A stretch of DNA of 56,144 bases from the IMG/VR virus record IMGVR_UViG_3300045957_000043, positions 1-56,144 of that record; one strand, given 5' to 3'. The notes beneath the pieces are model-generated. The model saw only the letters and a list, made by a program, of their open reading frames with translations, was not told the DNA's origin and searched no databases. This DNA is from a virus (Duplodnaviria; Caudoviricetes). This document shows positions 510 to 55,335 of the stretch, piece after piece. How positions within the stretch are numbered: position 1 is the first letter of the stretch; every line of letters begins with the position of its first letter. The position numbers and the translations under genes are program-made.

Positions 510-623
510 ATGTTTACGGAACGTGACGCGATCTGTGTAGTTCTGATTCTGCTGGTCGGCGGTCTCGCCGAACTGTACCGGGTGCACTGTCAGCTAGAGG
601 AGCTTTGGCGCGATGACGAGTAA
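510..623 (+). CDS. Small hydrophobic early protein (37 aa; not in ORF track)
   Basis: MFTERDAICVVLILLVGGLAELYRVHCQLEELWRDDE; motif at 494-504, preceded by a 20-bp palindrome at 473-492. Confidence 0.65.
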   Translation: MFTERDAICVVLILLVGGLAELYRVHCQLEELWRDDE

Positions 624-813
624 CGTAGTCGGAGCTATACGGTATGCCGTACTCGAAAGCGATGAGTCTCTAAGATCGCTCGCCAGAAAAGCAGGCGTTA
701 ACGTTAGCGTAGTCTCGCGATTCGCATGTGGTCGCGATATTTCTGTCGATAACTTAACTAAGCTTGCCCGCGCGGTCGGGTGTGCAATCGCTATCGAAAG
801 GCTAGAAAGATGA
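613..813 (+). CDS. XRE/Cro-like helix-turn-helix protein
   Basis: SLRSLARKAGVNVSVVSRF...ISVDNLTKLARAVG HTH pattern. Confidence 0.8.
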   Translation: MTSNVVGAIRYAVLESDESLRSLARKAGVNVSVVSRFACGRDISVDNLTKLARAVGCAIAIERLER

Positions 814-1419: not shown

Positions 1420-1613
1420 TGGACCGCCACGAATTCTTTACGTTGGAGGCCGAAATCAGTGAACTGTCCGAGAAGATCCGCGTGGCGCAGCATAGTCTTG
1501 TCCGCAACGGTCTACCTAGTTTTCGGCTCAAGCATGATTGTCTCGGCACAATGAAAGTTAACATCGACGTGCTTATCGCGCGGTTAAACTCGCTACGAGA
1601 TCAGATGCGATAA
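1419..1613 (+). CDS. Hypothetical protein
   Basis: ATG overlaps the upstream TAA (TAATG); MDRHEFF... Confidence 0.6.
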   Translation: MDRHEFFTLEAEISELSEKIRVAQHSLVRNGLPSFRLKHDCLGTMKVNIDVLIARLNSLRDQMR

Positions 1614-1624
1614 GCAAGGCGAGA

Positions 1625-1659
1625 CTACACCCGGTGCGAAGCTGTTGCACTGGGTGTAG
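1625..1659 (+). terminator. Stem-loop, possible terminator or processing site
   Basis: CTACACCCGGTGCGA / TTGCACTGGGTGTAG 15-bp stem. Confidence 0.45.
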
Positions 1660-1700
1660 CCGGTCTGTCTAATTATCACAGCTACACACTACACACAGGG

Positions 1701-1976
1701 GTGAAAAAGCGATACCAAGTTTACGTGGACAGAGGCAACGGTCTAGAGCTTGACGGTTGTTGGGGCAGCGAAGAAGCGACCAGCAACAACCGCAAAGAAT
1801 GCGAATTTTTCGCGCGGGGATCGCATCGTGACTACCTCGACTGCGCGTGGGTAGTCTACGACGAAAAAGCACGGGAAGAGGTCTACCGAATTGAATCGAA
1901 GCCGGCACCGACCGCCCTGGGAATTCCGTTGCCGTTGCCGTCGCGACTAGGAACAACAGCCCCGCAGCGGCGCTAA
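1701..1976 (+). CDS. Hypothetical protein
   Basis: 91-aa ORF with GTG start; converges on the minus-strand cluster. Confidence 0.55.
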   Translation: MKKRYQVYVDRGNGLELDGCWGSEEATSNNRKECEFFARGSHRDYLDCAWVVYDEKAREEVYRIESKPAPTALGIPLPLPSRLGTTAPQRR

Positions 1977-2320
1977 ACTTGCTCACCTAGGTACCGTCCG
2001 TGTGTAGTCTCGCCTGTGATGTGGTCTTTCGTGTAGATACCACGGGGTGAGCAATGATAGGTTTTAACCTGCTGGTCTAGGTTTAGGTTTTCAGACTGCC
2101 ATACTCTAACGCGGAGTATCCGCAACGCTGTAACCAAGACTTGCTTTGCAGACTTTGCTCTACACTGCAGGTTGTTTAGTTCTACGCGCGTTTGTGTCGG
2201 GTTGTGCGTGAGCACAAACTCAAAGCTTGGCGAGTTAACCAGCCCGCCGCCTGCTTGCGGGCCGGTACGCTTGACGTACTCGACCGAAACGTCTTTTAGA
2301 AACGTCTTTAGATCGGTCAT
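1973..2320 (-). CDS. Class I peptide release factor-like fragment with GGQ changed to GGG
   Basis: DVSVEYVKRTGPQAGGGLVN...VLTHNPTQ...QVKTY...TKDHITGET parallels RF2 DLRIDTYRSSGAGGQHVN...VRITHLPTG...QIRSY...VKDHRTGxET. Confidence 0.7.
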   Translation of the reverse strand: MTDLKTFLKDVSVEYVKRTGPQAGGGLVNSPSFEFVLTHNPTQTRVELNNLQCRAKSAKQVLVTALRILRVRVWQSENLNLDQQVKTYHCSPRGIYTKDHITGETTHGRYLGEQV

Positions 2321-2329
2321 AGTACCTCG

Positions 2330-2728
2330 TCAATCCCTTGCGCGGCGAAGCTCGTCCGCAAACGCCCGCTCGTAAGTAATTCCGTAGCACCCTGGGCCGA
2401 GCAGCCAATCACCGTGTTCCGGGTGGGTTACGGTCACCGGTTCGGTCACACGCAGGCACGGCCCGGTAAGAGCGCCGTTAGATCGCGTGAAATATTCGAC
2501 GCGATCGTGGCTCAGAATGTGACGGCTGCCCTTTGTGGTCCCCGGCGCAAGTTGTAACTGCACTAAAGCGGGTTTTCCTTCTGGTTCAGCGAGTTTGTGA
2601 ATTAACACGTCGCCTTGCCGCACGTACTCACCGACAGACGCGGCTACGGGAAACTCCTGTAGATCGTCGCAGCGGATTGCTTCGAGGCTTTCGCGAATAG
2701 ATTTAAAAACTTGGGCTGCACTTGGCAT
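2330..2728 (-). CDS. Conserved RQGDV/HPEH protein, usual partner of DUF6745 genes
   Basis: YVRQGDVLI, LAPGTTKGSRHIL, VTHPEHG...LGPGCY motifs. Confidence 0.75.
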   Translation of the reverse strand: MPSAAQVFKSIRESLEAIRCDDLQEFPVAASVGEYVRQGDVLIHKLAEPEGKPALVQLQLAPGTTKGSRHILSHDRVEYFTRSNGALTGPCLRVTEPVTVTHPEHGDWLLGPGCYGITYERAFADELRRARD

Positions 2729-2743
2729 GGGTTTCTCTCCTGG

Positions 2744-2941
2744 TTAAATGGTACCCAGATCGTTTCGTAACTGGCTGTCTAGCTGACTGCGGAGCTGGTT
2801 GTGGAGCTGGCTGCGGAGCTGGTTGTGGAGCTGGCTGTAGAGCTGGCTGTAGAGCTGGCTGTGGAGCTGGCTTTCGAGCTGGCTGTAGAGCTGGCTGTAG
2901 AGCTGGCTGTGGAGCTGGTTGTGGAGCTGGGTGCCTATCAT
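2744..2941 (-). CDS. Tetrapeptide (xSQL) repeat protein, 65 aa
   Basis: MIGTQLHNQLHSQLYSQL...; ATGA overlap with the DUF6745 stop. Confidence 0.65.
   Translation of the reverse strand: MIGTQLHNQLHSQLYSQLYSQLESQLHSQLYSQLYSQLHNQLRSQLHNQLRSQLDSQLRNDLGTI
2772..2930. repeat. 12-bp tandem repeat array (GAGCTGGCTGTR-type)
   Basis: About 13 imperfect units read directly from the sequence. Confidence 0.95.
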
Positions 2942-3750
2942 GATGCACCGACGCACTTTCCGTCTGGCGCGTTTCGCACCCAAGACTGAGCCTCGCCGCA
3001 GGTCGAGACGCCTTGCGGTACTTCCAAGAAGTACACACGGGCGGTCGACGGGCACCCGCAGACCAGCACCCGAATTCCTTCGCACTCAAACAATGCTTCT
3101 TCAGTCGCCTCGATGTCATTCCGGCGCCGGTCTAAAACTTTCGCGCGGGTGGCTTTCAGAAACTTGTCCCAGCCGTACCGCTCGATCGCAATCCGGCGGA
3201 CCTCTTCGCTGTCTTCGGCTCTGATCTGCGCCACGGTTAGCGTCTCAGGTCGCATAACGATCTGCTCGGTGACACGAACCCCCGAAATCGAGTACACTCC
3301 CCAGCCGTCCCTGAATCGCACAGATGGCCCTGTATCGCAATGCAGCTCGCCAGCCTGCCAGTGTACCTCTACCGGCCTCCGAGAGACTACGGGGCTGTCT
3401 GAGAGGGCTACAAACGGACATTTCCAGCACCACTGATCAAAAGCCTCTAAAGTCTCCGAATCGAACTCTACGCCGACCAACTCGGCGCCGCGATACCACC
3501 CCGCCCACGCGGACCACCACCAGGACGCATAGTAGGGCACGTCGCCGGCGAGCCGCATCGCCGCGAGCGGCGAATCAGCCACGCGAACTTTCGGGCGGGG
3601 GTGGCCGAACCTCGCCCACATATCGCCCAGAGCTTCCGCAATCTCCGCGTCGGTGTACTGCTCGGTCTGCCTCGCGAGCCACGGGTCTTTGAAGCGTTCA
3701 ACTTGTGCCCACTGGCGGGAGGTTAACGACTCGATTCGTTGGCTGACCAT
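2938..3750 (-). CDS. DUF6745 domain protein
   Basis: ELHCDTGPSVRFRDGWGVYSISGVRV...EEVRRIAIERYGW...CPSTARVYFLEVP. Confidence 0.8.
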   Translation of the reverse strand: MVSQRIESLTSRQWAQVERFKDPWLARQTEQYTDAEIAEALGDMWARFGHPRPKVRVADSPLAAMRLAGDVPYYASWWWSAWAGWYRGAELVGVEFDSETLEAFDQWCWKCPFVALSDSPVVSRRPVEVHWQAGELHCDTGPSVRFRDGWGVYSISGVRVTEQIVMRPETLTVAQIRAEDSEEVRRIAIERYGWDKFLKATRAKVLDRRRNDIEATEEALFECEGIRVLVCGCPSTARVYFLEVPQGVSTCGEAQSWVRNAPDGKCVGAS

Positions 3751-3772
3751 TCTGAAGTCTCCTGTAGATCGG

Positions 3773-3931
3773 TTAGTAGCTGATTGTGAAGCTGTCGTCG
3801 AGCCGGGTGCAAAACCTAAAGTCGCCGATGGGTCGGGTACCCTCCGAAACTGACGACCGGAGAAGACCGGTGAGATGCTGGGTAAACTGCTCGTGAAGCT
3901 GTTTTTCCAGATAGCGGGGCGAGATCACCAT
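3773..3931 (-). CDS. Hypothetical protein (52 aa)
   Basis: MVISPRYLEKQLHEQF...; coupled to the upstream repeat ORF. Confidence 0.5.
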   Translation of the reverse strand: MVISPRYLEKQLHEQFTQHLTGLLRSSVSEGTRPIGDFRFCTRLDDSFTISY

Positions 3932-4143
3932 TGCAAGTCCTCCCGGAGTTGGCTGTCGAGCTGGTTGCCGAGTTCGCTTTCGAGCTGGTTGCCGAGCTGG
4001 CTGCGGAGCTGGCTGTGGAGCTGGCTGTAGAGCTGGCTGTAGAGCTGGCTGCGGAGCTGGCTGTGGAGCTGGCTGTAGAGCTGGCTGTAGAGCTGGCTTT
4101 CGAGCTGGCTGCAGAGCTGGTTGCTGAGCTGGTTCGCGTTCAT
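3925..4143 (-). CDS. Second xSQL tetrapeptide repeat protein, 72 aa
   Basis: MNANQLSNQLCSQLESQLYSQL...; GAGGG RBS. Confidence 0.65.
   Translation of the reverse strand: MNANQLSNQLCSQLESQLYSQLYSQLHSQLRSQLYSQLYSQLHSQLRSQLGNQLESELGNQLDSQLREDLQW
3946..4133. repeat. 12-bp tandem repeat array, same unit and orientation as 2772-2930
   Basis: About 15 imperfect units. Confidence 0.95.
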
Positions 4144-4175
4144 AGTCAAGACCCTCTTCAAGCTGACTGCGGACC

Positions 4176-4204
4176 ATACTACCGCCAGCCTATCAGAACG
4201 TCAA
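4176..4204 (-). promoter_or_regulatory. Sigma70-like promoter for the DUF6745 cluster
   Basis: TTGACG-17bp-TAGTAT; ATAGGCTG motif in the spacer. Confidence 0.65.
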
Positions 4205-4229
4205 TAGACGTCCGTCCATTTTCTTAGAC

Positions 4230-4860
4230 TCTCGCAGGGGGTTTTACTCGCGACGAACCACGGGCGGTTCCCGCCGTGTTCGCAGGGGGTTGAAAGTCAG
4301 AAAACGCGCTAAAGGCAAAAACCCCTCTTCTGGGAGGGGGTAGTCTTATTTTATTATATTTTTATATTAATTAATTAGTTATAGCTACTGACCCTTGGTC
4401 TCCCCCCACCCGTGGGGCCCCGTTTGGGGGATTGTGAGAGGGTGACACTTACAACAAATAATTAATTAATAAATTACCCGTCTGAGACGCAAAAAACACT
4501 TGTTTTATAGGGTCAATCAGGCTTCGGGTATTATTTTCGCCAGATGTGGAAACAAAGTCGAATTCGCGCGGCGATGACACAAACTGTCAAATGAAAAATA
4601 GGGAAAAAACTGGCCACGCTTCCGCAGTGAATTAGTTTCAACCCCGGCGCGAACTAATTAGTCTAAGAAACAGAACCCGGGGGGTATGCAAATACCCCCG
4701 CCTGATTTTGGCCTTGAGGGGGCTTCACAGCCCAGCAGCCAGCAAGCCAAATCGCAACCATTTTCCATGCCGGAGGCTCGCTGGTGAGCGTCTATTAAAG
4801 TAGACCCGACCTCGGATCAGCGGTCGACTTCATGTCAAAGAGGGCGGTCCCGCCGGCACT
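4230..4860. other. Putative replication origin region
   Basis: ~630 bp non-coding next to the primase gene; AT-only tracts at 4346-4377 and 4456-4477; TCGCAGGGGGTT direct repeats; several inverted repeats. Confidence 0.5.
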
Positions 4861-7100
4861 CAGATTGTGCTACGTGCGACCCACTGTTTCGGCGGCTTAA
4901 AGTCTGGCATGGCCAGCACCGTCGGGGGCCGCCCCGGTCCCGCTGCGGGCGTGAGATACGCAGCCACTTCCCCGCGTTCAAGCAGACGCAGGACCGCGTG
5001 TTTGATCTTCTTGTGGGCCAGCGTCGTGCTGCGATAAATCTGAGTGAGGCTCTTCGGCTCGTCGGCTAATTGCCGCAGGACGGCACTGGTGAGCTGCTCT
5101 TCGGCTCTGTCTTCGTCTGACGCGATCGTGGCTGCTTTGACGAGCATATCCTCGACAGCCTTCAGGCGGTCCACTACGACGCTGTGAGCGGCCTTAAGAT
5201 CGCATTCTTCGACCTGGAACCCCTGGTCTAGGTTTCCCCAGCTGCGGCTCAACGCGAACAGCAGCGCGAGTTTCTGGATGTGCAGCACCGCGCGAACCCA
5301 GATCGTAGCTCTTACGTTGTTGCCGGCTTCCCGGTCGTCCCGCACTCTGGAATCAATTGCGCGACGGTATTTGCTGAGCAGCTGCCGGCCTTTGGGGCTG
5401 TAGTGTATTGTGCGCGGCTGGTCTAATAGCAAAAGCTGCTTAGCGAACGCGAGTAAAGCTTCCGGGACGGGAATAAACCCGATACTCTCGTCAGCTAGGT
5501 CTACATGCGGGATCTCGAAGACTAAAATCCTGGAGAGAAACCCGTCGATAGATAGCCCTGTGTTTACAGCCGGCCAGAAAGTCTCGGGGGTACTTGCGCC
5601 CTGGACGATCACCCGGGGATTAGTGCACGAGACTTGTTTGCCGTCAGCGTAAGTCTTTCGCACGTGGTCGGTGCTGTACAGTTCCATGAGCGTAACAGGG
5701 AGCGCCGCTAGATGCTGGCTGTTTGAGTTCGCGCGGAGTTTGCCGCCGATCTCGTCGATCTGCAGGAGCACCCCTGGGACTTGCGCGGCGATTGCGACAG
5801 CAGCCTGCGCGCTGGCTACGTCGGTGTAGACTAAGCCGTTAGCGCCGGCTTCGAACATTAAGCTCTGTACGCTTTTGCGGGTGTGCTCTTTGCCACCCCC
5901 GGACGCGGCTAAATTCACAGTAAACAGCCTGAGATCAATCCGGTCTTGCTTGATCGTGCGGCAGCCGAGCGAAGCTAACGCTGTGATCGCTGCAGAGAAC
6001 GCGAACTGCTCGTGCGGCCTGGGCGCCGTCTGCATGTAGTAGTTCATGAACTCCGAGATAAACCCCGGCACCCAGAAATCCACGACCCCCTTGCCTGCTC
6101 CTGCTCCCGCTCCCGGCTCGGTGTTCCCGCTCGGTGGCGCGGGGAGCACTCCTGTAGGCTCGTAAATACAGTCTTCCGCTTTGGCCAGGGCTTGCAGGCT
6201 TCGGTGCATGTCGACTTGCTCGTTTAACGGCGGCTCTTCATGAAATAACTCACGGATAGTCCATTTACAGCTTGCATGGAGACAAGATCCCGTGAGCTTG
6301 CCGTCGGACTGCAGACACACCGAGCACGAGTTATCCCCGACGTGCCTCGGACTGGTATTCTGGGGATTATCTGAATACTCTTTGCAACAGTGAGCTTGCT
6401 TGAATTTCCAGATATAAGCCCCTGAGCCCCAGACTTCCCGTGAAGACTCGATGCCTAGTTCTTGGAGCTTGACTTCGCAGTACAAAGCTTGCTGGCGGAC
6501 CAGCTCGGGGTTACTAACTGCGGGTTCCTGGACTTCGCGCGGTTTATTCCCGGCGATCGCGTGCTGTGAGACCCACTCTAGAAACTCATCTACACATTGC
6601 GATGGGTGGCAGGATTCTGGAGTGCCCAGTAAATCTTCGTTTAAGTCAAACGGCTGATAGGTATTCGCGCAGAACCTACCGGAAGTATTCGCGTAGATTT
6701 CAAGAGTCACGCCACCCGGTAGCTCGTATTTGCCGGAATACTGGGTGTTAGTCTCTGTGTAGCCTAAGAAATGCAGTCCCTTGCCCGAGCAGCTGCGCTC
6801 GCAGAAAGTATCTTTCAGCAGCTCGCAGACCTGCCTGTATTTTGGGTTTAGCTCGCCGGAGTCTAGAAAGACATCTGAGTCTAGGTCTATTAAGACTAGT
6901 TTGTTTTCGCGGTTGCAGTAACACCCTGTGGCGCCACTACACTGTGGCTTAGTCTGAGAGTATTCCTGCGCGAGCTTGTACGAAGTTAAGCCTTGCGGGT
7001 AGCCTTTTGATGTTCCGGTTTTTGGGTTGATCGCGAGTTTGGGATTTTTCTTAGATACCGGCAGGTGACAGTCGAGTTCGCGTAGGTCAACAGCAAGCAT
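4860..7100 (-). CDS. Primase-polymerase (AEP-like) fused to a DUF3987-like helicase domain
   Basis: LIDLD, ERSCSGKGLHF, LEIY...RF in the N-terminus; CLHASC; AASGGGKE Walker A, QIDEIG Walker B, DGFLSR. Confidence 0.85.
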   Translation of the reverse strand: MLAVDLRELDCHLPVSKKNPKLAINPKTGTSKGYPQGLTSYKLAQEYSQTKPQCSGATGCYCNRENKLVLIDLDSDVFLDSGELNPKYRQVCELLKDTFCERSCSGKGLHFLGYTETNTQYSGKYELPGGVTLEIYANTSGRFCANTYQPFDLNEDLLGTPESCHPSQCVDEFLEWVSQHAIAGNKPREVQEPAVSNPELVRQQALYCEVKLQELGIESSREVWGSGAYIWKFKQAHCCKEYSDNPQNTSPRHVGDNSCSVCLQSDGKLTGSCLHASCKWTIRELFHEEPPLNEQVDMHRSLQALAKAEDCIYEPTGVLPAPPSGNTEPGAGAGAGKGVVDFWVPGFISEFMNYYMQTAPRPHEQFAFSAAITALASLGCRTIKQDRIDLRLFTVNLAASGGGKEHTRKSVQSLMFEAGANGLVYTDVASAQAAVAIAAQVPGVLLQIDEIGGKLRANSNSQHLAALPVTLMELYSTDHVRKTYADGKQVSCTNPRVIVQGASTPETFWPAVNTGLSIDGFLSRILVFEIPHVDLADESIGFIPVPEALLAFAKQLLLLDQPRTIHYSPKGRQLLSKYRRAIDSRVRDDREAGNNVRATIWVRAVLHIQKLALLFALSRSWGNLDQGFQVEECDLKAAHSVVVDRLKAVEDMLVKAATIASDEDRAEEQLTSAVLRQLADEPKSLTQIYRSTTLAHKKIKHAVLRLLERGEVAAYLTPAAGPGRPPTVLAMPDFKPPKQWVARSTI

Positions 7101-7191
7101 CGCAGCCCCTCTAAACAAAAACAATGCCGCCTGCAAAACTGCTTGCAAGCGGCATTTAAGTATACCCACCCTGTGATTAGGCAGTCACCGT

Positions 7192-11164: not shown

Positions 11165-13255
11165 TTAATCTTTTCGATACCGAGTAGCCGTGAAGCCTGC
11201 TGCTTTGATCGGCCAACCTTGAGCCCATGCAGGCAACTCGCACAACAGCTGTTGGACTTGCTCAACAGAGACATTGAGGTCAGTCTCACAGCACGCTTCG
11301 TCGTGCACATGAAAAATCGTATTGATCCCGGCGCGCTCCAGGTTTAGTAAACCCTGCGCGAGAATATCCCGAGCGATAGCCTGGGTAGCGTTCTCGACCA
11401 GCAAGCCCGGATAGAGTCTCTTGGCGGAGCGATCGTTGGGGTTAAAGCAAGTCAAAACGTCGCGTTTGCCGATGGGAGTCTCGACTTGTTTCTTGATCTC
11501 CGGCTTAAAGTAATACAGCGATCTACCTGACGGCAGAGCCATGCGCAACCACTGGTAGCCGGCCTGCTCGTAGATATCAAACTTTATGAACTGGTTCACG
11601 TGCTGCGGCTCACCGGTTTGCACACACGCAAACGCCGCGTCGCCCATCGCGTACCAGAACTCAACGATCGGGCGGTTCGCGCGGCGATACACATCTACGA
11701 CGTAAGCCGCTGCGATCTGGTGGTCAGTGAGCTTGCCGGGTTTAGCGATGAGTGTAGTGCCGTGCTTCTGTAATGCAGTAAAGCTCTTCTCTCCGCCGGT
11801 TAACTCAGCCACTCGGTTCCACTTGTCGAGCTGTGCGGTTTTGCCTCGGATTACTTTCGTGCCGGGGATCTCAAGATCCTGGTTATCACCCCAAGCGTGC
11901 AGCATTTCAGCGAACTTCAAGAACCCACACGAATACTGCAAACTGAGCACGGCGACTTTAGAGACAAACCGTTCAGCTTTAGTAATCTCGTCTGCGGGTT
12001 TCTCGTAGAGCTTGGCGCCGAACTCGCAGTAAATATCTGCACCTGAATCAAACAGCTTGAGCATCTCAGTGTGCTGACTGAGTGCACAGACTACGACACC
12101 TTCAATCGAAGTGTAGTCACAAGCGATCAGCTGCTTGTTCTCGGGAGCTTTTACCATCGACCTGATGCACGAGCTTAAAGCGGCGGTTGTGTCGCCGTAT
12201 AGCATTTCGATCAGGTCGGGGTCTTCTTCGGGTAGCAGCTCGATCACGTCTTCGATTTGCTGCTGGTTTTTCAGCGACCCCCGCGTGAGATTCTGAAACT
12301 GCACGCCCCTGCCTGACCAGCGGCCCGTACCCGCACCGTAGAACATCATCGAGTTATGCACGCGCCCGCAGTACTCGCGGTCGAGCATTGCTTGGTATTT
12401 GCTCACACTCGCACGGGATAATTCCAGGCGCAGCTCTAACATCCGGCTGGCTTCGCTCGGCAAGTCCGGGTCCTTGAGTGCAGTCTCGACGACGGGTCTT
12501 GATAAATCTTCGAGCTGCACACCGTGGTGAATTTCTAGCCAGCCAAGAATGCGCTGCACTTGCCGACCTGTAGTGATCTCGCCGCTGGATAATTCAGCGA
12601 TCTCTTGCTCTAGTTTCTGTTTGTGCTTTTCGAGAAGGTTCACCGCGTGTCGGCAGGATTCTAGATCAACCGGGATGCCCCGGTTATTGATGACGTAATC
12701 TAATTGCCAGATAGTCTGCTCGCTCTCGGGGATCGCGGGCGTCGCTTTGTGGATCTCGCGTTCGACTTCTACGTCGATCTGGCAGTAGGCGTAGGTCTTC
12801 TCTAGCAGGTCCGGATTAAAGTTTCGCACGCCGTCTTTGTTGGGCTTGCAAACGTGCAGCATCGCGCGGTGCCCGATATCGTCTTTCTGCTGTGTGAGAT
12901 TAAGCGCAGCGCCGCAGTGCTTGAGGGCTCTAGGTAGTCCGCAAGCAGCAGCCCGGACTGCAGTGCATTCCCACTGTGAGATTGGTATTTCCGGCCAGCC
13001 GTGCACCGGCGCACAGTGATTATTTAAGACAGCTAGCTCAAAGCTTGCGTTGTAAGCGTGAAATTTGTAGTTCTCGGGCTCATAGAAAAAACCTGGCAGC
13101 GGATCTTCAGGGAGCCATAACTCTGCTGGTTTATCTCCGACAGCCCACGCCATGCAGAGCAAGTCAAACGACTCGCAGCTGGTGTAGCACTTCGTGCTTG
13201 TCTTGCGCAAGTCAGTCTCGCAGTAAGTTTCGAAATCAATAAACACGTTAGTCAT
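11165..13255 (-). CDS. polA: Phage family A DNA polymerase with 3'-5' exonuclease
   Basis: IDFET exonuclease I; motif A ACDYTSIE; motif B RFVSKVAVLSLQY; motif C HVHDE; ENATQAIARD. Confidence 0.95.
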   Translation of the reverse strand: MTNVFIDFETYCETDLRKTSTKCYTSCESFDLLCMAWAVGDKPAELWLPEDPLPGFFYEPENYKFHAYNASFELAVLNNHCAPVHGWPEIPISQWECTAVRAAACGLPRALKHCGAALNLTQQKDDIGHRAMLHVCKPNKDGVRNFNPDLLEKTYAYCQIDVEVEREIHKATPAIPESEQTIWQLDYVINNRGIPVDLESCRHAVNLLEKHKQKLEQEIAELSSGEITTGRQVQRILGWLEIHHGVQLEDLSRPVVETALKDPDLPSEASRMLELRLELSRASVSKYQAMLDREYCGRVHNSMMFYGAGTGRWSGRGVQFQNLTRGSLKNQQQIEDVIELLPEEDPDLIEMLYGDTTAALSSCIRSMVKAPENKQLIACDYTSIEGVVVCALSQHTEMLKLFDSGADIYCEFGAKLYEKPADEITKAERFVSKVAVLSLQYSCGFLKFAEMLHAWGDNQDLEIPGTKVIRGKTAQLDKWNRVAELTGGEKSFTALQKHGTTLIAKPGKLTDHQIAAAYVVDVYRRANRPIVEFWYAMGDAAFACVQTGEPQHVNQFIKFDIYEQAGYQWLRMALPSGRSLYYFKPEIKKQVETPIGKRDVLTCFNPNDRSAKRLYPGLLVENATQAIARDILAQGLLNLERAGINTIFHVHDEACCETDLNVSVEQVQQLLCELPAWAQGWPIKAAGFTATRYRKD

Positions 13256-13908
13256 ACTCTTGCCACCTTGCGCACGGGTATCGTTATGGCGTCTTCGGGA
13301 TGCCAGCCTCGATTGAGACGGCTGGTTATCGTGCGTCTGTGAATGCCCGTGATCTCGCCCCATTCGGTGATTGTTTTCGCAATACCGTTGACGGTTAGCA
13401 CATGGTTGTTGCGGCGGTTACGTGATTGCGTGATTCTGTCAGCCCAGCGGCAGTTTTCAGGCTCATAGTCGCTGTCGTTGTCGATCCGGTCCAGGCTGTA
13501 GTCGTTGCCCGGTCGCGGTCCCATGTCGTCGTAGAAATACTCGAAGCCTTCAAGCCAGCGGACACATACGCGAATACCCCGCGCGCCGTAGTCTTTGTAG
13601 TACGGGCTGCGAGGGTTGTAACATCGCTTTTTCATCGACGCCCACGCTTCGTATTCGGGGGTCCTGCACATCCCGTGTTGTAGGTTGCGAGAAGTTTTTG
13701 TCTCTCGGTCGTAGCAGCCGCAGCTCTTCGTGTTGCCGTTGCTGAGACTACCCGGATAGACAGCCGTGCGTTTTCCGCAGCGACACCTGCAGATAGCGAT
13801 CCGTGATCGGCACCAGCCTTTTTTGAGTCGTGCGTACGGGACAACCCGGTAGTAGAAAGCTTCGACGGTTAGCCGGCCAAAAACGTCGCCAAGATGGACT
13901 GCAGCCAC
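13252..13908 (-). CDS. HNH-type (homing-like) endonuclease
   Basis: FGRLTV, CRCRCG, TKSCGC, W.SMKKRC, YGARGI.VC, SLDRIDND..YEPENCRWA. Confidence 0.85.
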   Translation of the reverse strand: MAAVHLGDVFGRLTVEAFYYRVVPYARLKKGWCRSRIAICRCRCGKRTAVYPGSLSNGNTKSCGCYDRETKTSRNLQHGMCRTPEYEAWASMKKRCYNPRSPYYKDYGARGIRVCVRWLEGFEYFYDDMGPRPGNDYSLDRIDNDSDYEPENCRWADRITQSRNRRNNHVLTVNGIAKTITEWGEITGIHRRTITSRLNRGWHPEDAITIPVRKVARV

Positions 13909-19260: not shown

Positions 19261-19641
19261 ATGCAGGTTAAGTTTGCTGACTACCCGTGGGTCGCCAGGG
19301 CTATTGCTAGTCGCGGCGGCAACTACAAATTTCCACCCGAGCGGTTTTCGGCGCGTCGTTTAGTGGAGTACCAAGGGCGGCTCATCTATGCTGCGTCGCA
19401 ACTCGAACTGATCGCTGATATGCTACAGAAATACGGCGTCGAAGCGGTTGATCTCGTCGGGGGAGACAACATCGAAAACGCCGTGAATCTTGTTGAGCGA
19501 ACTGTGGGGCTGATCGCGGATCAGTGCTCAGGGTATGCGATCCACTATAAGACGAAACAGTCGTTTGTTACTGACGAGCCCGGCGACGCCCCCAAAAGAA
19601 AACGGGGGCGCCCTAGAAAGAAACCGCACGACGAAGCTTAG
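19261..19641 (+). CDS. Hypothetical protein with a C-terminal AT-hook
   Basis: KRKRGRPRKK; GAAAGG RBS. Confidence 0.75.
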   Translation: MQVKFADYPWVARAIASRGGNYKFPPERFSARRLVEYQGRLIYAASQLELIADMLQKYGVEAVDLVGGDNIENAVNLVERTVGLIADQCSGYAIHYKTKQSFVTDEPGDAPKRKRGRPRKKPHDEA

Positions 19642-20516
19642 ATAGGTTTAGGCGATTTCAGCGTTTCGGGGACAACCCGCGAAATAAGGTAGTGCTTTCG
19701 AAAAGTACTTTCGTTCGCGTGGCCCAGGTGAGTGCGGCCAGCTTCAATCCCGTATCTGCGGAATACATCTGTGCCGCTTCCGGCTCTTAGCCCGCCCAAG
19801 GTGTGACCAGGGAAACCGCCGGCTTGCTTAATAATCCGGGCAGCTTCGCCGAAAAAGTGGCGCTCGTCCCCTGGCAAGGGGAAAACTAACTCGCGAGCAG
19901 GAAGCTTGATCTTTTCGATGGCTCTGAGTGTATTCTCTGAGAACCGCCAGCAAATCGGGTTTCCGGTCTTCTCGCGCATGCGCACGACTACCCCGTCTTC
20001 CTGGATCTGGTCGAACCTAAGCGATCTCAAGTCTTTCGGGTGTGAACTGTCCCAAGTTGCGCGAATATACGCGACCCAGAAATCCCCGCGACAGATCCCA
20101 TTGCGCCTGTATTTTTTACTCAACCACTTCCGGTATCGCGGTAGCGGGTTTTCCAGTCGGTGAATCAGCTCTGAAGCTTCTTCCCAGGAAAACCCTTCAG
20201 TCGGTTTCGAGTCTTGACGGATCTTTACAGTGTTGTACCGCGACAGCTCTTCGGTGATCAGCTTTTGAGCCCTCGCGGCGTTGCACAACACACAGAGGAT
20301 AGTCTTGTAGAGCTTCCGTGTGCTGGAAGCGAGTCCGTCTGTTCTCAGCTGAACAAGATGCCGGTTGACCGCTTCCGGGTTCAGGTCTTCGACGGTTGCT
20401 TCCCGCCCTAGCGTGGCGCTGAATTTCTTCACCGTGAGATGCAGCGTTTTGACGTATTTCTTGCTGAGGTCTTCTCGTAACAGGATGTAGCTGTCGACAA
20501 AATCGCGAAGCAACAT
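19638..20516 (-). CDS. int: Tyrosine recombinase/integrase (catalytic residues partly degenerate)
   Basis: SAM-like N-domain, EKTG, GLR, HLGH, RKHY; GGAGAGGA RBS. Confidence 0.8.
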   Translation of the reverse strand: MLLRDFVDSYILLREDLSKKYVKTLHLTVKKFSATLGREATVEDLNPEAVNRHLVQLRTDGLASSTRKLYKTILCVLCNAARAQKLITEELSRYNTVKIRQDSKPTEGFSWEEASELIHRLENPLPRYRKWLSKKYRRNGICRGDFWVAYIRATWDSSHPKDLRSLRFDQIQEDGVVVRMREKTGNPICWRFSENTLRAIEKIKLPARELVFPLPGDERHFFGEAARIIKQAGGFPGHTLGGLRAGSGTDVFRRYGIEAGRTHLGHANESTFRKHYLISRVVPETLKSPKPI

Positions 20517-20552
20517 AGTGTCCTCTCCTAGTAAGCTGAACCAGCCAGAATC

Positions 20553-20790
20553 ATAGGCTGAACAAACACAAACGATAGGCTGCACGAAATGCAAACCTCA
20601 AACCGACGGGTCTATTATATTAGACTAAGCATCGGTAGGTCAATACCATCGGCCTACTATGCCAGCCTAGGTAATATAGGCCGCCAAGGGCATGTAACCA
20701 AAGTAGCGAATCGCTTCGGGCTGTCAACAAGCTAGGCTGCACAACCGCTAAAGAATAGGCAGAAGTATCGCCGAACCATAGGCTGCACAA
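20553..20790. promoter_or_regulatory. Direct repeats (A)TAGGCTG(C/A)AC, putative operator or arm-type sites
   Basis: Copies at 20553, 20575, 20733, 20778. Confidence 0.6.
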
Positions 20791-53982: not shown

Positions 53983-55335
53983 ATGACTCTCGAAACCAAC
54001 TTGGAAACAACCCCTTCCCGCAAACGCGCGCAATACGACAATCAATGCCAAGAGTGCGGCAAACCAATCACGAAAAACGTGGACTGGATTGTCCCCGGTC
54101 GCTATCCAGGGCGCAAGCGCTTGAAATGGATTCACGAACGATGCAGGACACCGGCGAATGATCCGCAACGCACGGAAAAACTGGAATTGCGCGTCGATGA
54201 GACCTACGAAACGCGCGGCGCTGGTCGCGTGACGATCACTGTACATGAACCCTGCAACGCTTACCCGTGGATCGCGGGGGACGGGCGCAGCTACGACGCG
54301 AAGGGCTTTTATTACAACCCCGAATCGCCAAATGAAAACGATATCGTGTCGCGCGTCGAACCGCAGTCGGAACCGCAGTCGGAACCGCAGTCCGAACCAC
54401 GGTCCGAACCTCGCAAAACTGGAAACCCGTTTGCGTTTAACGTCCAAGAATTGAACTCTTCGATCGCGCATCTTAGCGCAGTGTCCCACGCTATCGCAGA
54501 ATTGCAATCTCGCGTTGTCGATCTTGAGGCTAACGGCGTGTCTGGCGGCGGCGCAACGCGCATCGTGGTTGAACGCCAAGACGCGCCCGAACTAGAGTTG
54601 AACGAAACCGCGCACGAATGCCTGCAGGACGTGGTTGACCTCGCCTCGCAACGTATTCCTACGCTGCTCGTCGGTCCGACTGGATCAGGAAAAACTTATC
54701 TAGCGCGCCAGCTGTCGCAAGTGCTGGAGTCGCGCAAATTCGGCTCGCTAAGCCTATCTGCCGGCGTAACCGAATCAAAACTAGTCGGTCGCTGCCTGCC
54801 TGATCACACTGGCGGGTTTACGTTCCGCGCAACTGAATTTCTAGATATTTTCGAACACGGTGGGGTTTTCCTCTTTGATGAAGTCGACGCCGCAGATCCG
54901 AACGTGTTGCTTGCTGTGAACTCAGCTATCGCTAACGGGTTCCTTCACCTTCCCGATCGACACGAAAATCCTGTCGCTGAAAAACACGCCGATTGCGTTT
55001 TGATTGCGGCGGCTAACACGTTTATGACTGGACCAGACGCCGCGTTTAGCGGTCGCGACCAGCAAGACGCCGCGTTTATAGACCGGTTCTCAGTCGGAAA
55101 AGTTTGGGTGGATTATTCGCGCGATATCGAGACCGCAATTTGCCCTAGCGAGCGGTTGCGTGAACGATTTTGGGCAATCCGCGAGAAAACGCGCGAGCAC
55201 AACATCCGCCGACCGGTTTCGACGCGCACACTGCAGTCAGCCTACCGCATGCAGATTCAAGGTTGGTCAATCGAGAAAATCATCGACGGGTTCACGCGCG
55301 GCTGGACTGACGACGAAAAGCGAAAATGCTTGTAG
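53983..55335 (+). CDS. MoxR/CobS-like AAA+ ATPase
   Basis: GPTGSGKT, LFDEVD, AAANT, DAAFIDRF, STR; N-terminal CxxC and EPQS repeats. Confidence 0.9.
   Translation: MTLETNLETTPSRKRAQYDNQCQECGKPITKNVDWIVPGRYPGRKRLKWIHERCRTPANDPQRTEKLELRVDETYETRGAGRVTITVHEPCNAYPWIAGDGRSYDAKGFYYNPESPNENDIVSRVEPQSEPQSEPQSEPRSEPRKTGNPFAFNVQELNSSIAHLSAVSHAIAELQSRVVDLEANGVSGGGATRIVVERQDAPELELNETAHECLQDVVDLASQRIPTLLVGPTGSGKTYLARQLSQVLESRKFGSLSLSAGVTESKLVGRCLPDHTGGFTFRATEFLDIFEHGGVFLFDEVDAADPNVLLAVNSAIANGFLHLPDRHENPVAEKHADCVLIAAANTFMTGPDAAFSGRDQQDAAFIDRFSVGKVWVDYSRDIETAICPSERLRERFWAIREKTREHNIRRPVSTRTLQSAYRMQIQGWSIEKIIDGFTRGWTDDEKRKCL

What the first reader, a model, noticed from the sequence alone, without database searches (positions are those of the whole stretch)
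1973..2320. Release-factor mimic with the catalytic GGQ replaced by GGG
The 115-aa protein follows the RF1/RF2 domain 3-4 pattern, including the RF2-like QIRSY...KDHRTG tail. It reads AGGGLVN instead of AGGQHVN and lacks the codon-reading domain. Established: the GGQ Gln is required for peptidyl-tRNA hydrolysis and is methylated by PrmC. Inference: a dead mimic that could block termination or rescue (ArfB/PrfH-like), decoy PrmC or an RF-sensing defence, or favour UGA readthrough.
Basis: partly seen in the sequence, partly recalled or inferred. Interest (0 to 1): 0.7.

Follow-up and report, generated by a model that had tools for sequence, protein, structure and literature searches.

The report
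Phage mini release factor lacking GGQ
An uncultured sediment phage carries a small, conserved gene derived from the peptide-releasing domain of bacterial release factors but without the catalytic GGQ motif, so it probably binds the translation machinery without releasing peptides; its function is untested.

Summary
ORF 1973-2320 (-) encodes 115 aa with AGGGLVN where release factors have GGQ, a QVKTYH...TKDHITGE tail, and no codon-reading domain.

Alone it matches RF models only weakly (Pfam RF-1 none; NCBIfam prfA E 0.0016). It does belong to a small metagenome-only family of 9 protein clusters. That family's profile hits solved RF1 structures at E 1.6e-5 and matches GGQ-bearing phage mini release factors by hhalign (98.7%, E 1.7e-16). 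An alignment-based AlphaFold model (pLDDT 85) puts RF GGQ domains top (Z 7.3-6.3).

None of the 9 members keeps GGQ, and four lack the loop entirely. The most conserved part is the C-terminal hairpin. The clade sits on one tree branch (SH-aLRT 99), so this is a maintained GGQ-less lineage, not one decaying copy.

The parent class, GGQ-bearing phage mini-RFs, is abundant and often sits in tRNA arrays.

Best reading: a non-catalytic RF-derived protein that binds the ribosome or a partner of it. This mechanism is inferred, not shown. UGA readthrough has no support: all three stops are used evenly and there is no tRNA.

The scan has noted other GGQ-less phage RF fragments on other DNA; I could not show they are the same family. 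Verdict: new variant of a known kind, moderate interest.

The parts
1973..2320 (-). Gene for the 115-aa GGQ-less mini release-factor homolog (P0001)
   Evidence: ORF. Homologs at 31-41% identity in 8 other protein clusters. RF homology. Fold.
2324..2328 (-). Shine-Dalgarno-like GAGGT, 4 nt (from GAGG) before the ATG and 1 nt after the upstream gene's TGA (2330-2332); suggests co-translation with the upstream gene
   Evidence: Read directly from the sequence. Inference only.
2234..2254 (-). AGGGLVN (residues 23-29), the counterpart of the RF GGQ loop; the GGG codons are at 2243-2251
   Evidence: Translation. Aligned to GGQ.
2204..2212 (-). LTH (residues 37-39) of strand beta2. His39 is the only invariant column across 30 GGQ-less and GGQ-bearing mini-RFs
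   Evidence: Alignment A5; A2 invariant columns.
2099..2128 (-). ALRILRVRVW (residues 65-74), part of the long helix that corresponds to RF helix alpha7
   Evidence: Translation. Aligned to TALRILRARLYQ of RF1 chain 2fvo_A. Helix 58-78 in the model.
2009..2071 (-). QVKTYHCSPRGIYTKDHITGE (residues 84-104), a beta-hairpin homologous to the RTY...DHR hairpin of RF domain 4; the best conserved part of the family
   Evidence: Translation. Invariant V85 T87 Y88 H89 S91 G94 H100 G103. Strands 86-91 and 94-99 in the model.
2330..2728 (-). Upstream, probably co-transcribed gene (132 aa, phrog_27831, unknown function); not an obligate partner
   Evidence: PHROG hit E 4.4e-5. 18 related viral loci, 0 of 18 with an RF-like ORF within the fetched flanks. 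No Pfam, PDB or Atlas name.

Best explanation
SHOWN: this is a real phage gene. Its product is a very divergent homolog of the GGQ (peptidyl-hydrolase) domain of bacterial class I release factors, followed by the first beta-hairpin of RF domain 4. It belongs to a small, basic (pI 9.5-11.7) family found only in metagenomes. The family is derived from, or sister to, the abundant GGQ-bearing phage mini release factors. In this family the catalytic loop is free to vary (GGG, GGT, AGM, or absent), while the LTH strand, the RILRxRV helix and above all the RVRTYHTSxxGTWTKDHRTGE hairpin are conserved. Compared with GGQ-bearing mini-RFs, the helix-to-hairpin linker is about 8 residues shorter and the terminal helix is missing. 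INFERRED: the protein no longer hydrolyses peptidyl-tRNA. It acts by binding, most likely to the ribosomal A site or decoding-centre region through the conserved basic hairpin and helix. In this model the phage occupies vacant or stalled ribosomes, or competes with host RF, ArfB or PrfH-type factors, without releasing the nascent chain. The benefit to the phage is unknown; candidates are blocking a host rescue or abortive pathway, or protecting ribosomes.
For: Gene reality: SD and coupling. Homologs P0002, P0003, P0005, P0008-P0012 at E 5e-11 to 8e-5 and 83-181 bits, with 15 invariant columns across 9 members at 31-41% identity.

RF homology: prfA E 0.0016 at the GGQ region. 41 of 41 PDB profile hits are RFs, best 1.6e-5. 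5 of 9 members hit Pfam RF-1, best 2e-6. hhalign to phage mini-RFs gave 98.7%, E 1.7e-16 over 95 columns. All of the best 120 longer hits are PCRF+RF-1 proteins, best 7.1e-5.

Fold: AF2 with 30 sequences gave pLDDT 85. The first 15 Foldseek PDB rows are all RF1, RF2 or mtRF1a (best E 2.9e-3). The top 8 VIA rows are RF1, mtRF1, PrfH, mtRF-R and RF2, Z 7.3-6.3, over residues 1-84. The ESM Atlas's own single-sequence model matches RF-1 clusters at TM 0.49-0.50.

Loss is clade-wide: 0 of 9 keep GGQ and 4 of 9 start after the loop. The clade is one side of a branch, SH-aLRT 99.

Binding rather than catalysis: all members are basic. For YaeJ/ArfB the GGQ domain alone does not bind ribosomes, the C-terminal part does, and shortening the linker by 2 residues abolishes hydrolysis but not binding (PMC3950681, section 20). 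In PrfH the part homologous to RF domains 2/4 contacts rRNA and S12 (10.1101/2021.09.22.461353, passages).

Translation link of the parent class: 35 of 80 viral loci with a GGQ-bearing mini-RF hold tRNA genes, 29 hold three or more, and 24 have one within 300 nt. RF-1-domain genes in tRNA arrays are in print for mycobacteria and their phages (PMC5966550, passages).

Precedent for GGQ-less RF-like ribosome binders: Balon (PMC10901736, passages).
Against: No experiment and no ribosome-binding evidence exists for any member. This protein alone fails Pfam RF-1 at E<=1, and its NCBIfam score of 17.4 bits is far below the 423-bit cut-off.

The AF2 model was built from an alignment that contains RF-domain proteins, so the fold match is not independent of the sequence evidence. 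Foldseek found nothing at E<=0.001. VIA Z values are below 8, which the tool says can reflect a common alpha/beta arrangement, and dsRBD and hibernation-factor folds follow at Z 5-6.

P0001 is the most divergent member: end branch 2.34, Q for the near-invariant G43, I for R101. It could therefore be less constrained than its relatives. It keeps G24-G25 and the GG-to-TH spacing, so residual hydrolysis is not excluded.

Without RF domain 2, the hairpin has lost its normal packing partner, so it may do something unrelated to the decoding centre.

Unlike the parent class, this phage record has no tRNA genes.
Confidence: 0.5

Rival explanations
1. Exapted fold with a non-ribosomal target. The protein binds an RNA or a protein that normally recognises the RF GGQ domain or domain 4 (for example the methyltransferase PrmC, RF3, or an ArfA-like adaptor), or an unrelated phage or host molecule, and titrates or regulates it.
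For: GGQ-less organellar RF relatives exist whose function is thought to have diverged: mtRF2b and a tick ICT1-like protein (PMC3472500, passages). The hairpin has lost its domain-2 partner, which leaves an exposed surface. dsRBD-like folds score Z 5-6 against the model. All members are basic. A phage tmRNA fragment proposed to titrate SmpB is a precedent for truncated mimics (PMC4131195, passage).
Against: No partner is indicated by context. The upstream neighbour's relatives never sit beside an RF-like gene (0 of 18 loci). There were no PADLOC hits for 7 proteins tested. Without the Gln the protein is no PrmC substrate, and four members lack the loop PrmC would recognise.
Confidence: 0.25
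2. It is still a weak, codon-independent peptidyl-tRNA hydrolase like the GGQ-bearing phage mini-RFs and ArfB, because the two essential glycines and the loop spacing are kept in this member.
For: G24-G25 and the distance from GG to the TH motif (15 residues) are the same as in GGQ-bearing mini-RFs, and LVN follows as in RF1 HVN. PMC5799190 (passages) states that the glycines are indispensable while the Gln side chain has a packing role. Recalled, not seen here: Gln substitutions in RF1 retain part of the in vitro release activity (Shaw and Green 2007).
Against: There is a two-residue insertion just before the GG. Relatives have AGM or GGT, or lack the loop entirely, so the family's conserved function cannot need it. 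The linker to the hairpin is about 8 residues shorter than in GGQ-bearing mini-RFs, and in YaeJ a 2-residue shortening already abolishes hydrolysis (PMC3950681, section 20).
Confidence: 0.08
3. A decaying, functionless remnant of a phage mini release factor.
For: P0001 has the longest end branch in the tree (2.34) and departs from several family-consensus residues. Its own cluster has 1 member on 1 contig.
Against: The frame is intact with an SD and tight coupling. All 15 family-invariant residues are kept. The GGQ-less state is shared by 9 clusters that are only 31-41% identical yet keep a near-identical hairpin, which requires long purifying selection.
Confidence: 0.07
4. A factor that promotes UGA (or other stop) readthrough or supports a recoded phage genetic code by blocking RF2.
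For: Only the general idea that an RF mimic could compete with RFs. An earlier scan note on another genome describes a phage RF tied to UGA readthrough (e1-5887256; not tested here).
Against: In 81 non-overlapping ORFs of 50 aa or more, the stops are TGA 29, TAG 27, TAA 25. There is no tRNA or suppressor tRNA in the 56-kb record. The protein has no codon-reading domain, so it cannot be stop-codon specific.
Confidence: 0.05

Closest known systems
Phage 'RF-1 (domain) peptide chain release factor' mini-RFs, e.g. Mycobacterium phage Cane17 gene 201 (NC_054716.1), Phabba (BFVD A0A249XS59), and metagenomic P0013/KKN88809.1
   Same: Small (about 110-135 aa) stand-alone RF domain 3 plus the RVRTYH...KDHR hairpin. 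Phage-borne. hhalign 98.7%, E 1.7e-16. The H in RTYH is shared with this class.
   Different: They keep GGQ (80 of 80 loci, though one search pattern contained GGQ), the RNK after it, a linker about 8 residues longer, and a terminal G.LD..I helix. They are abundant: at least 565 confirmed IMG/VR stretches and 261 cultured-phage records. They often lie in tRNA arrays. The GGQ-less family has none of these properties and forms a separate branch.
Bacterial class I release factors RF1/RF2 (TIGR00019, TIGR00020; PDB 2fvo, 1rq0, 2ihr, 6osk)
   Same: Domain 3 fold (Z 7.3, rmsd 3.0, 73 residues). Shared motifs TH.PT and ALRILR.R, and the domain-4 hairpin RTY...DHR.
   Different: No domains 1 and 2, no PxT or SPF, no GGQ, no switch loop. 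17.4 bits against a 423-bit cut-off.
ArfB/YaeJ and mitochondrial ICT1 / mtRF-R (C12orf65)
   Same: Codon-independent, domain-3-only RF relatives of similar size. mtRF-R 7a5h Z 6.7, C12orf65 2rsm Z 6.3, YaeJ 4v95 Z 5.2.
   Different: They keep GGQ and use a basic helical C-terminal tail in the mRNA channel (PMC3950681, abstract and section 20). Here the C-terminus is an RF domain-4 type hairpin and GGQ is gone.
PrfH (PDB 7sa4, 9mq4)
   Same: Shortened RF with a GGQ domain and part of domain 4 (Z 7.0 and 6.5; 10.1101/2021.09.22.461353, passages).
   Different: PrfH keeps GGQ and a domain-2-derived rRNA-recognition domain of about 100 residues, and pairs with RtcB. None of these is present here.
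Non-catalytic RF-like proteins: Balon (aeRF1-like hibernation factor), plant mtRF2b, tick ICT1-like protein without GGQ
   Same: RF-derived proteins that have lost GGQ and are thought or shown to act without peptide release (PMC10901736 and PMC3472500, passages).
   Different: Balon is of the archaeo-eukaryotic aeRF1 fold, so it is an analogy, not a homolog. mtRF2b and the tick protein are full-size organellar paralogs, not phage mini proteins. A related plant case, PrfB3, is recalled only and was not seen in the passages read.

Membership tests
Class I release factor RF1/RF2 (TIGR00019 / TIGR00020) | Whole-protein score above the curated cut-off | tested here: not met
   17.4 bits against 423.25 (prfA); 12.9 against 370 (prfB).
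Class I release factor RF1/RF2 | Codon-recognition superdomain (PCRF, PF03462; PxT or SPF) | tested here: not met
   115 aa and no Pfam hit. The alignment starts at RF position ~194-222.
Class I release factor RF1/RF2 | GGQ tripeptide in domain 3 | tested here: not met
   GGG at residues 24-26. 0 of 9 family members have GGQ.
Pfam RF-1 domain (PF00472) | HMM match at or above the gathering score (35 bits, as given) | tested here: not met
   No hit at E<=1 for P0001 and none in the whole record. 5 of 9 family members match at E<=1, best 2e-6. Homology is therefore supported only transitively and by profiles.
Pfam RF-1 domain (PF00472) | GGQ-domain fold (beta-loop-beta-beta-long helix) | tested here: met
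   Model secondary structure E11-18, E32-39, E44-49, H58-78. Top 8 VIA rows are RF-family GGQ domains, Z 7.3-6.3. Caveats: the model is alignment-driven and Z is below 8.
ArfB/YaeJ/ICT1 | GGQ plus a basic helical C-terminal tail that binds the empty mRNA channel | tested here: not met
   No GGQ. The C-terminus is predicted as beta-strands 86-91, 94-99 and 105-107 and aligns to the RF domain-4 hairpin. YaeJ chain Z is only 5.2.
PrfH | Domain-2-derived rRNA-recognition domain plus GGQ, linked to RtcB | tested here: not met
   The protein is too short and has no N-terminal domain. PrfH profile hit E 0.63. No RtcB was seen among the annotated ORFs, though not all ORFs were scanned.
Phage mini release factors (RF-1 domain proteins of phages) | Stand-alone domain 3 plus RVRTYH...DHR hairpin, phage-encoded | tested here: met
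   hhalign 98.7%. Alignment A5. The record is a virus with terminase, portal, tape measure and integrase.
Phage mini release factors | GGQ motif and terminal helix | tested here: not met
   Absent in P0001 and in all 9 family members. The family forms a separate branch, SH-aLRT 99.
Non-catalytic ribosome-binding RF mimics (functional class, e.g. Balon) | Binds the ribosomal A site without peptide release | not testable with these tools
   Needs co-sedimentation, release assays or cryo-EM.

The most novel reading that the evidence does not exclude
A phage-encoded, bacterial-type (RF1/RF2 lineage) dead release factor locks onto the A site or decoding centre of host ribosomes through its conserved hairpin. 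By doing so it blocks host rescue or termination factors, or a ribosome-directed defence. It would be a viral counterpart, from a different fold lineage, of GGQ-less ribosome binders such as Balon, and the first functional class of anti-rescue or ribosome-guard proteins evolved from phage mini release factors.
Probability: 0.3. Interest if true: 0.7.

Novelty: new variant of a known kind. Interest (0 to 1): 0.45.

Why it matters
Phages carry hundreds of small release-factor-domain genes whose roles have, as far as my searches show, not been tested. A sub-lineage has discarded the catalytic loop yet kept the rest under selection. That separates binding from catalysis and points to the conserved hairpin as the part that matters.

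If the protein binds ribosomes, it would show how a virus turns a rescue or termination enzyme into an inhibitor or guard of host translation. It would also give a minimal probe (about 95-115 aa) for the A-site or decoding-centre surface recognised by RF domain 4. If it binds something else, it would reveal a new partner of the RF fold.

Tried and rejected
Searches with the single protein found nothing useful. The word-seeded search found only the protein itself (1 of 5 candidates). IMG/VR pattern search: 28 stretches, none confirmed. Cultured phages: one E=10 match, meaningless. P0003 against cultured phages: no match.

Family profiles found no locus in IMG/VR, in the GTDB species genomes (32 stretches, none confirmed) or in JGI metagenomes (27 and 52 stretches, none confirmed). 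No genomic context of any homolog was obtained. This is a limit of pattern-based searches, not proof of absence.

Three hits (P0004, P0006, P0007; 916-1262 aa) were dropped. P0004 and P0006, read, are perfect tandem-repeat proteins whose scores add up over many short stretches. P0007 was not read; it was dropped for its similar length and its many short matched stretches (6).

The single-sequence AF2 model was poor (pLDDT 44) and was not used.

The longer-protein search gave only canonical RFs at 40 bits or less, so no fused form was seen. The tool warns this is weak evidence.

Synteny through the neighbour showed 0 of 18 loci with an RF-like ORF, so the two-gene-module idea was rejected. Relatives of the phage sought through its primase and DNA polymerase: none.

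PADLOC: no hit for 7 proteins. The ESM Atlas feature search gave no usable hit for P0001.

Sequencing runs: one DNA run, possibly the source sample, and no RNA holder listed. Read laying was not used.

Promoter and terminator scan of 1500-4600: 3 promoter-like sites against 1.2 +/- 1.1 expected and 4 terminator-like sites against 3.0 +/- 1.8. This is not informative.

Literature: searches found no paper on a GGQ-less phage mini release factor and no functional study of phage mini-RFs.
Full report
WHAT IS THERE. The window is a linear IMG/VR virus record of 56,144 bases, estimated 68% complete, with 55.7% GC. It encodes terminase, portal, tape-measure, integrase, exonuclease, family-A-type DNA polymerase, helicase and a DUF3987 primase, so it is a tailed, probably temperate phage.

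The finding is ORF 1973..2320 on the minus strand, 115 aa. It is the last gene of a minus-strand run that also holds a repeat-rich ORF (3773..4177), a DUF6745 gene (2938..3750) and a 132-aa gene of PHROG 27831 (2330..2728). Its ATG lies 9 nt after the TGA of that upstream gene, with GAGG four nt before the ATG. Its stop overlaps by 4 nt the stop of a convergent plus-strand ORF (1701..1976).

IS IT A RELEASE-FACTOR RELATIVE? Taken alone the protein is borderline.
- Pfam RF-1: no hit at E<=1.
- NCBIfam prfA: E 0.0016, 17.4 bits against a 423-bit cut-off, but aligned exactly on the GGQ region (profile 222-289 of 361). prfB: E 0.04.
- PDB by phmmer: three hits, all RF1 types, E 0.055 to 0.78. GGG falls on GGQ, LTHNPT on ITHLPT and TALRILRVRVWQ on TALRILRARLYQ.

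An exhaustive HMMER scan of 1.84 billion representatives found three real relatives of 97-116 aa: P0002 at 5.1e-11, P0003 at 1.2e-7 and P0005 at 8.3e-5. It also found three tandem-repeat proteins. I dropped these after reading two of them (P0004, P0006); P0007 was not read.

A profile of the first four members found 19 proteins at E<=0.01. Nine are GGQ-less proteins of 91-117 aa (83-181 bits). Ten are small proteins with a precomputed RF-1 domain.

The same profile hit 41 distinct PDB sequences at E<=10, and all 41 are release factors: RF1 best at 1.6e-5, RF2 about 1.2e-3, mitochondrial RF1, and PrfH at 0.63. Five of the nine members hit Pfam RF-1 on their own (best 2e-6). hhalign of the nine-member profile against five GGQ-bearing mini-RFs gave 98.7% probability and E 1.7e-16 over 95 columns. 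A search among longer proteins gave 227 hits at E<=0.001. The best 120 are all PCRF+RF-1 release factors at 40 bits or less, so no fused form was seen.

STRUCTURE. The single-sequence model was poor (pLDDT 44). With a 30-sequence alignment (A5) AlphaFold gave pLDDT 85 and pTM 0.62. The elements are strand 11-18, a low-confidence loop (mean 58 over residues 21-30), strands 32-39 and 44-49, a long helix 58-78, and a hairpin 86-91/94-99.

Foldseek against the PDB found nothing at E<=0.001, but the first 15 listed rows are all RF1, RF2 or mtRF1a chains (best 2ihr, 2.9e-3). In BFVD, rank 2 is the 'RF-1 peptide chain release factor' of Mycobacterium phage Phabba. VIA-align against 48,161 chains put eight RF-family GGQ domains on top: RF1 6osk Z 7.3, rmsd 3.0, 73 residues; then 1zbt, mtRF1, PrfH twice, mtRF-R, C12orf65 and RF2, down to Z 6.3. 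All cover model residues 1-84. dsRBD and hibernation-factor folds follow at Z 6.2 or less.

Two caveats apply. The model rests on an alignment that contains RF-domain proteins. Z below 8 can reflect a common arrangement. The ESM Atlas's own single-sequence model independently matched RF-1 clusters at TM 0.49-0.50. I take homology to the RF GGQ domain as established by sequence profiles and consistent with the fold.

GGQ STATUS IN RELATIVES. None of the nine family members has GGQ.
- P0001 has GGG and P0005 has GGT.
- P0002, P0008 and P0009 have AGM.
- P0003, P0010, P0011 and P0012 (91-99 aa) begin just before the LTH strand, so they lack strand 1 and the whole loop.

What is conserved instead is L37, H39, T42, V46, R67, I68, and above all V85, T87, Y88, H89, S91, G94, H100 and G103 in the hairpin. 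That makes 15 invariant columns at 31-41% pairwise identity to P0001.

Relative to GGQ-bearing mini-RFs the family shares four differences:
- a 4-residue insertion before the helix,
- a 2-residue insertion in the hairpin,
- a helix-to-hairpin linker about 8 residues shorter,
- loss of the terminal helix.

In a maximum-likelihood tree of 39 sequences (9 GGQ-less, 30 with GGQ) the GGQ-less proteins are one side of a branch with SH-aLRT 99. P0001 has the longest end branch, 2.34, and the tool warns that long branches meet. So this is a maintained GGQ-less lineage, not a single decaying copy, and P0001 is its most divergent member. P0001 also has the most RF-like loop: GG is kept, the spacing to TH is the same, and LVN follows as HVN does in RF1.

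THE PARENT CLASS. GGQ-bearing mini-RFs of about 110-135 aa are common in phages. All 80 have GGQ, but one of the two search patterns contained GGQ, so that count is biased.

Of these 80 loci (not de-replicated), 35 contain tRNA genes, 29 contain three or more, and 24 have a tRNA within 300 nt of the mini-RF. One locus also holds a tmRNA.

Among cultured phages, 261 records match, 205 of them Mycobacterium phages, annotated 'RF-1 (domain) peptide chain release factor'. The association of RF-1-domain genes with tRNA arrays, Pth and tmRNA in mycobacteria and their phages is already in print (PMC5966550, passages).

The GGQ-less family is rare by contrast. It comprises nine clusters of 1-2 sequences, seen on 1-20 contigs each, only in ENA and Logan assemblies. 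It is absent from IMG/VR apart from this record, and from GTDB species genomes and JGI metagenomes by pattern search. This phage record has no tRNA.

MECHANISM. Shown: an RF-domain homolog, loss of GGQ across the clade, conservation concentrated in the helix and hairpin, and basic proteins (pI 9.5-11.7).

Inferred: it acts by binding, not hydrolysis. The YaeJ/ArfB study supports this logic. The GGQ domain alone stays in the soluble fraction, ribosome association depends on the C-terminal part, and removing two linker residues abolishes hydrolysis but not binding (PMC3950681, section 20). In PrfH the part equivalent to RF domains 2/4 contacts rRNA and S12.

A shortened linker plus a conserved hairpin fits a protein that still docks near the decoding centre but no longer needs to reach the peptidyl-transferase centre. 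Balon shows that a GGQ-less RF-like protein can be a bona fide A-site binder (PMC10901736, passages). That is an analogy from another fold lineage.

I put about 0.5 on a non-catalytic ribosome-associated role and 0.25 on a non-ribosomal partner. Residual hydrolase activity in this member gets 0.08, because the two glycines, which PMC5799190 describes as the indispensable part, are kept. A functionless remnant gets 0.07 and readthrough or recoding gets 0.05. The last is disfavoured because stops are used evenly (TGA 29, TAG 27, TAA 25 of 81 ORFs), there is no suppressor tRNA and there is no codon-reading domain.

CONTEXT GAVE LITTLE. The upstream gene has 18 relatives in viral contigs, but none has an RF-like ORF in the fetched flanks. 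It has no name in Pfam, the PDB or the Atlas. There were no PADLOC hits. This is the main gap.

NOVELTY. The scan's earlier notes list other GGQ-less phage RF fragments on other DNA: e1-5908031, e1-5908044 and e1-4046723. Sequence look-ups with P0010 and P0003 found no overlap, so I cannot say they are the same family.

My literature searches found no description of such proteins in phages. Supplements were closed and the library is partial.

I class this as a new variant of a known kind: a catalytically disabled offshoot of the known phage mini-RF / RF-1 domain class. Interest is moderate (0.45). The identity is solid and the family is new as far as I can see, but the function is wholly inferred.

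Noticed in passing
window 2700-3120 and 3770-4180: Two repeat-rich stretches flank the DUF6745 gene (2938..3750). Several frames give long periodic peptides (QPAPQPALQPA..., LxSQLxSQ...). They were also flagged on this window by another first-reader note (e1-6302021).
   Followed up: no
L019-L098 (IMG/VR loci with GGQ-bearing mini release factors): 35 of 80 loci hold tRNA genes, 29 hold three or more, and 24 have a tRNA within 300 nt of the mini-RF gene. Many mini-RF genes sit directly between two tRNAs inside arrays of 10-38 tRNAs. The link is in print for mycobacteria (PMC5966550) but here spans many uncultured phages.
   Followed up: partly
L085:4020-4391; L028:5800-5890; L064:95-166: A phage-borne tmRNA (tag ANAANDEVFALAA) lies about 0.8 kb from a mini-RF gene. 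In two other loci ARAGORN calls a tRNA with anticodon CTA (a possible amber suppressor) near a mini-RF or PrfH-like gene.
   Followed up: no
L060:4743-5375, L028:4746-5387, L023:4905-5405: Some phage RF homologs are longer (167-214 aa) and carry part of the codon-reading or PrfH-like N-terminal domain. Others (L046, L061, L064, L089, L090, L094) have GGQ followed by an unrelated, charged helical C-terminus. Phage mini-RFs therefore come in at least three architectures.
   Followed up: no
window 1973-1976: The stop codons of the mini-RF-like gene (minus strand) and of the convergent ORF 1701..1976 (plus strand) overlap by 4 nt, leaving no room for a terminator between them.
   Followed up: no
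window 4860-7169 and 11165-13363: The primase (DUF3987, PHROG 3022) and the DNA polymerase have no close relatives in IMG/VR by the pattern search, so the phage appears to be an isolated lineage.
   Followed up: partly
window 53983-55335: A 450-aa AAA_5 (MoxR/CobS-like) ATPase, PHROG 249 'porphyrin biosynthesis', next to the packaging module.
   Followed up: no
window 613-813 and 19638-20594: A Cro/CI-type HTH gene (HTH_3, E 1.8e-5) and an integrase (PHROG 1) suggest a temperate lifestyle.
   Followed up: no
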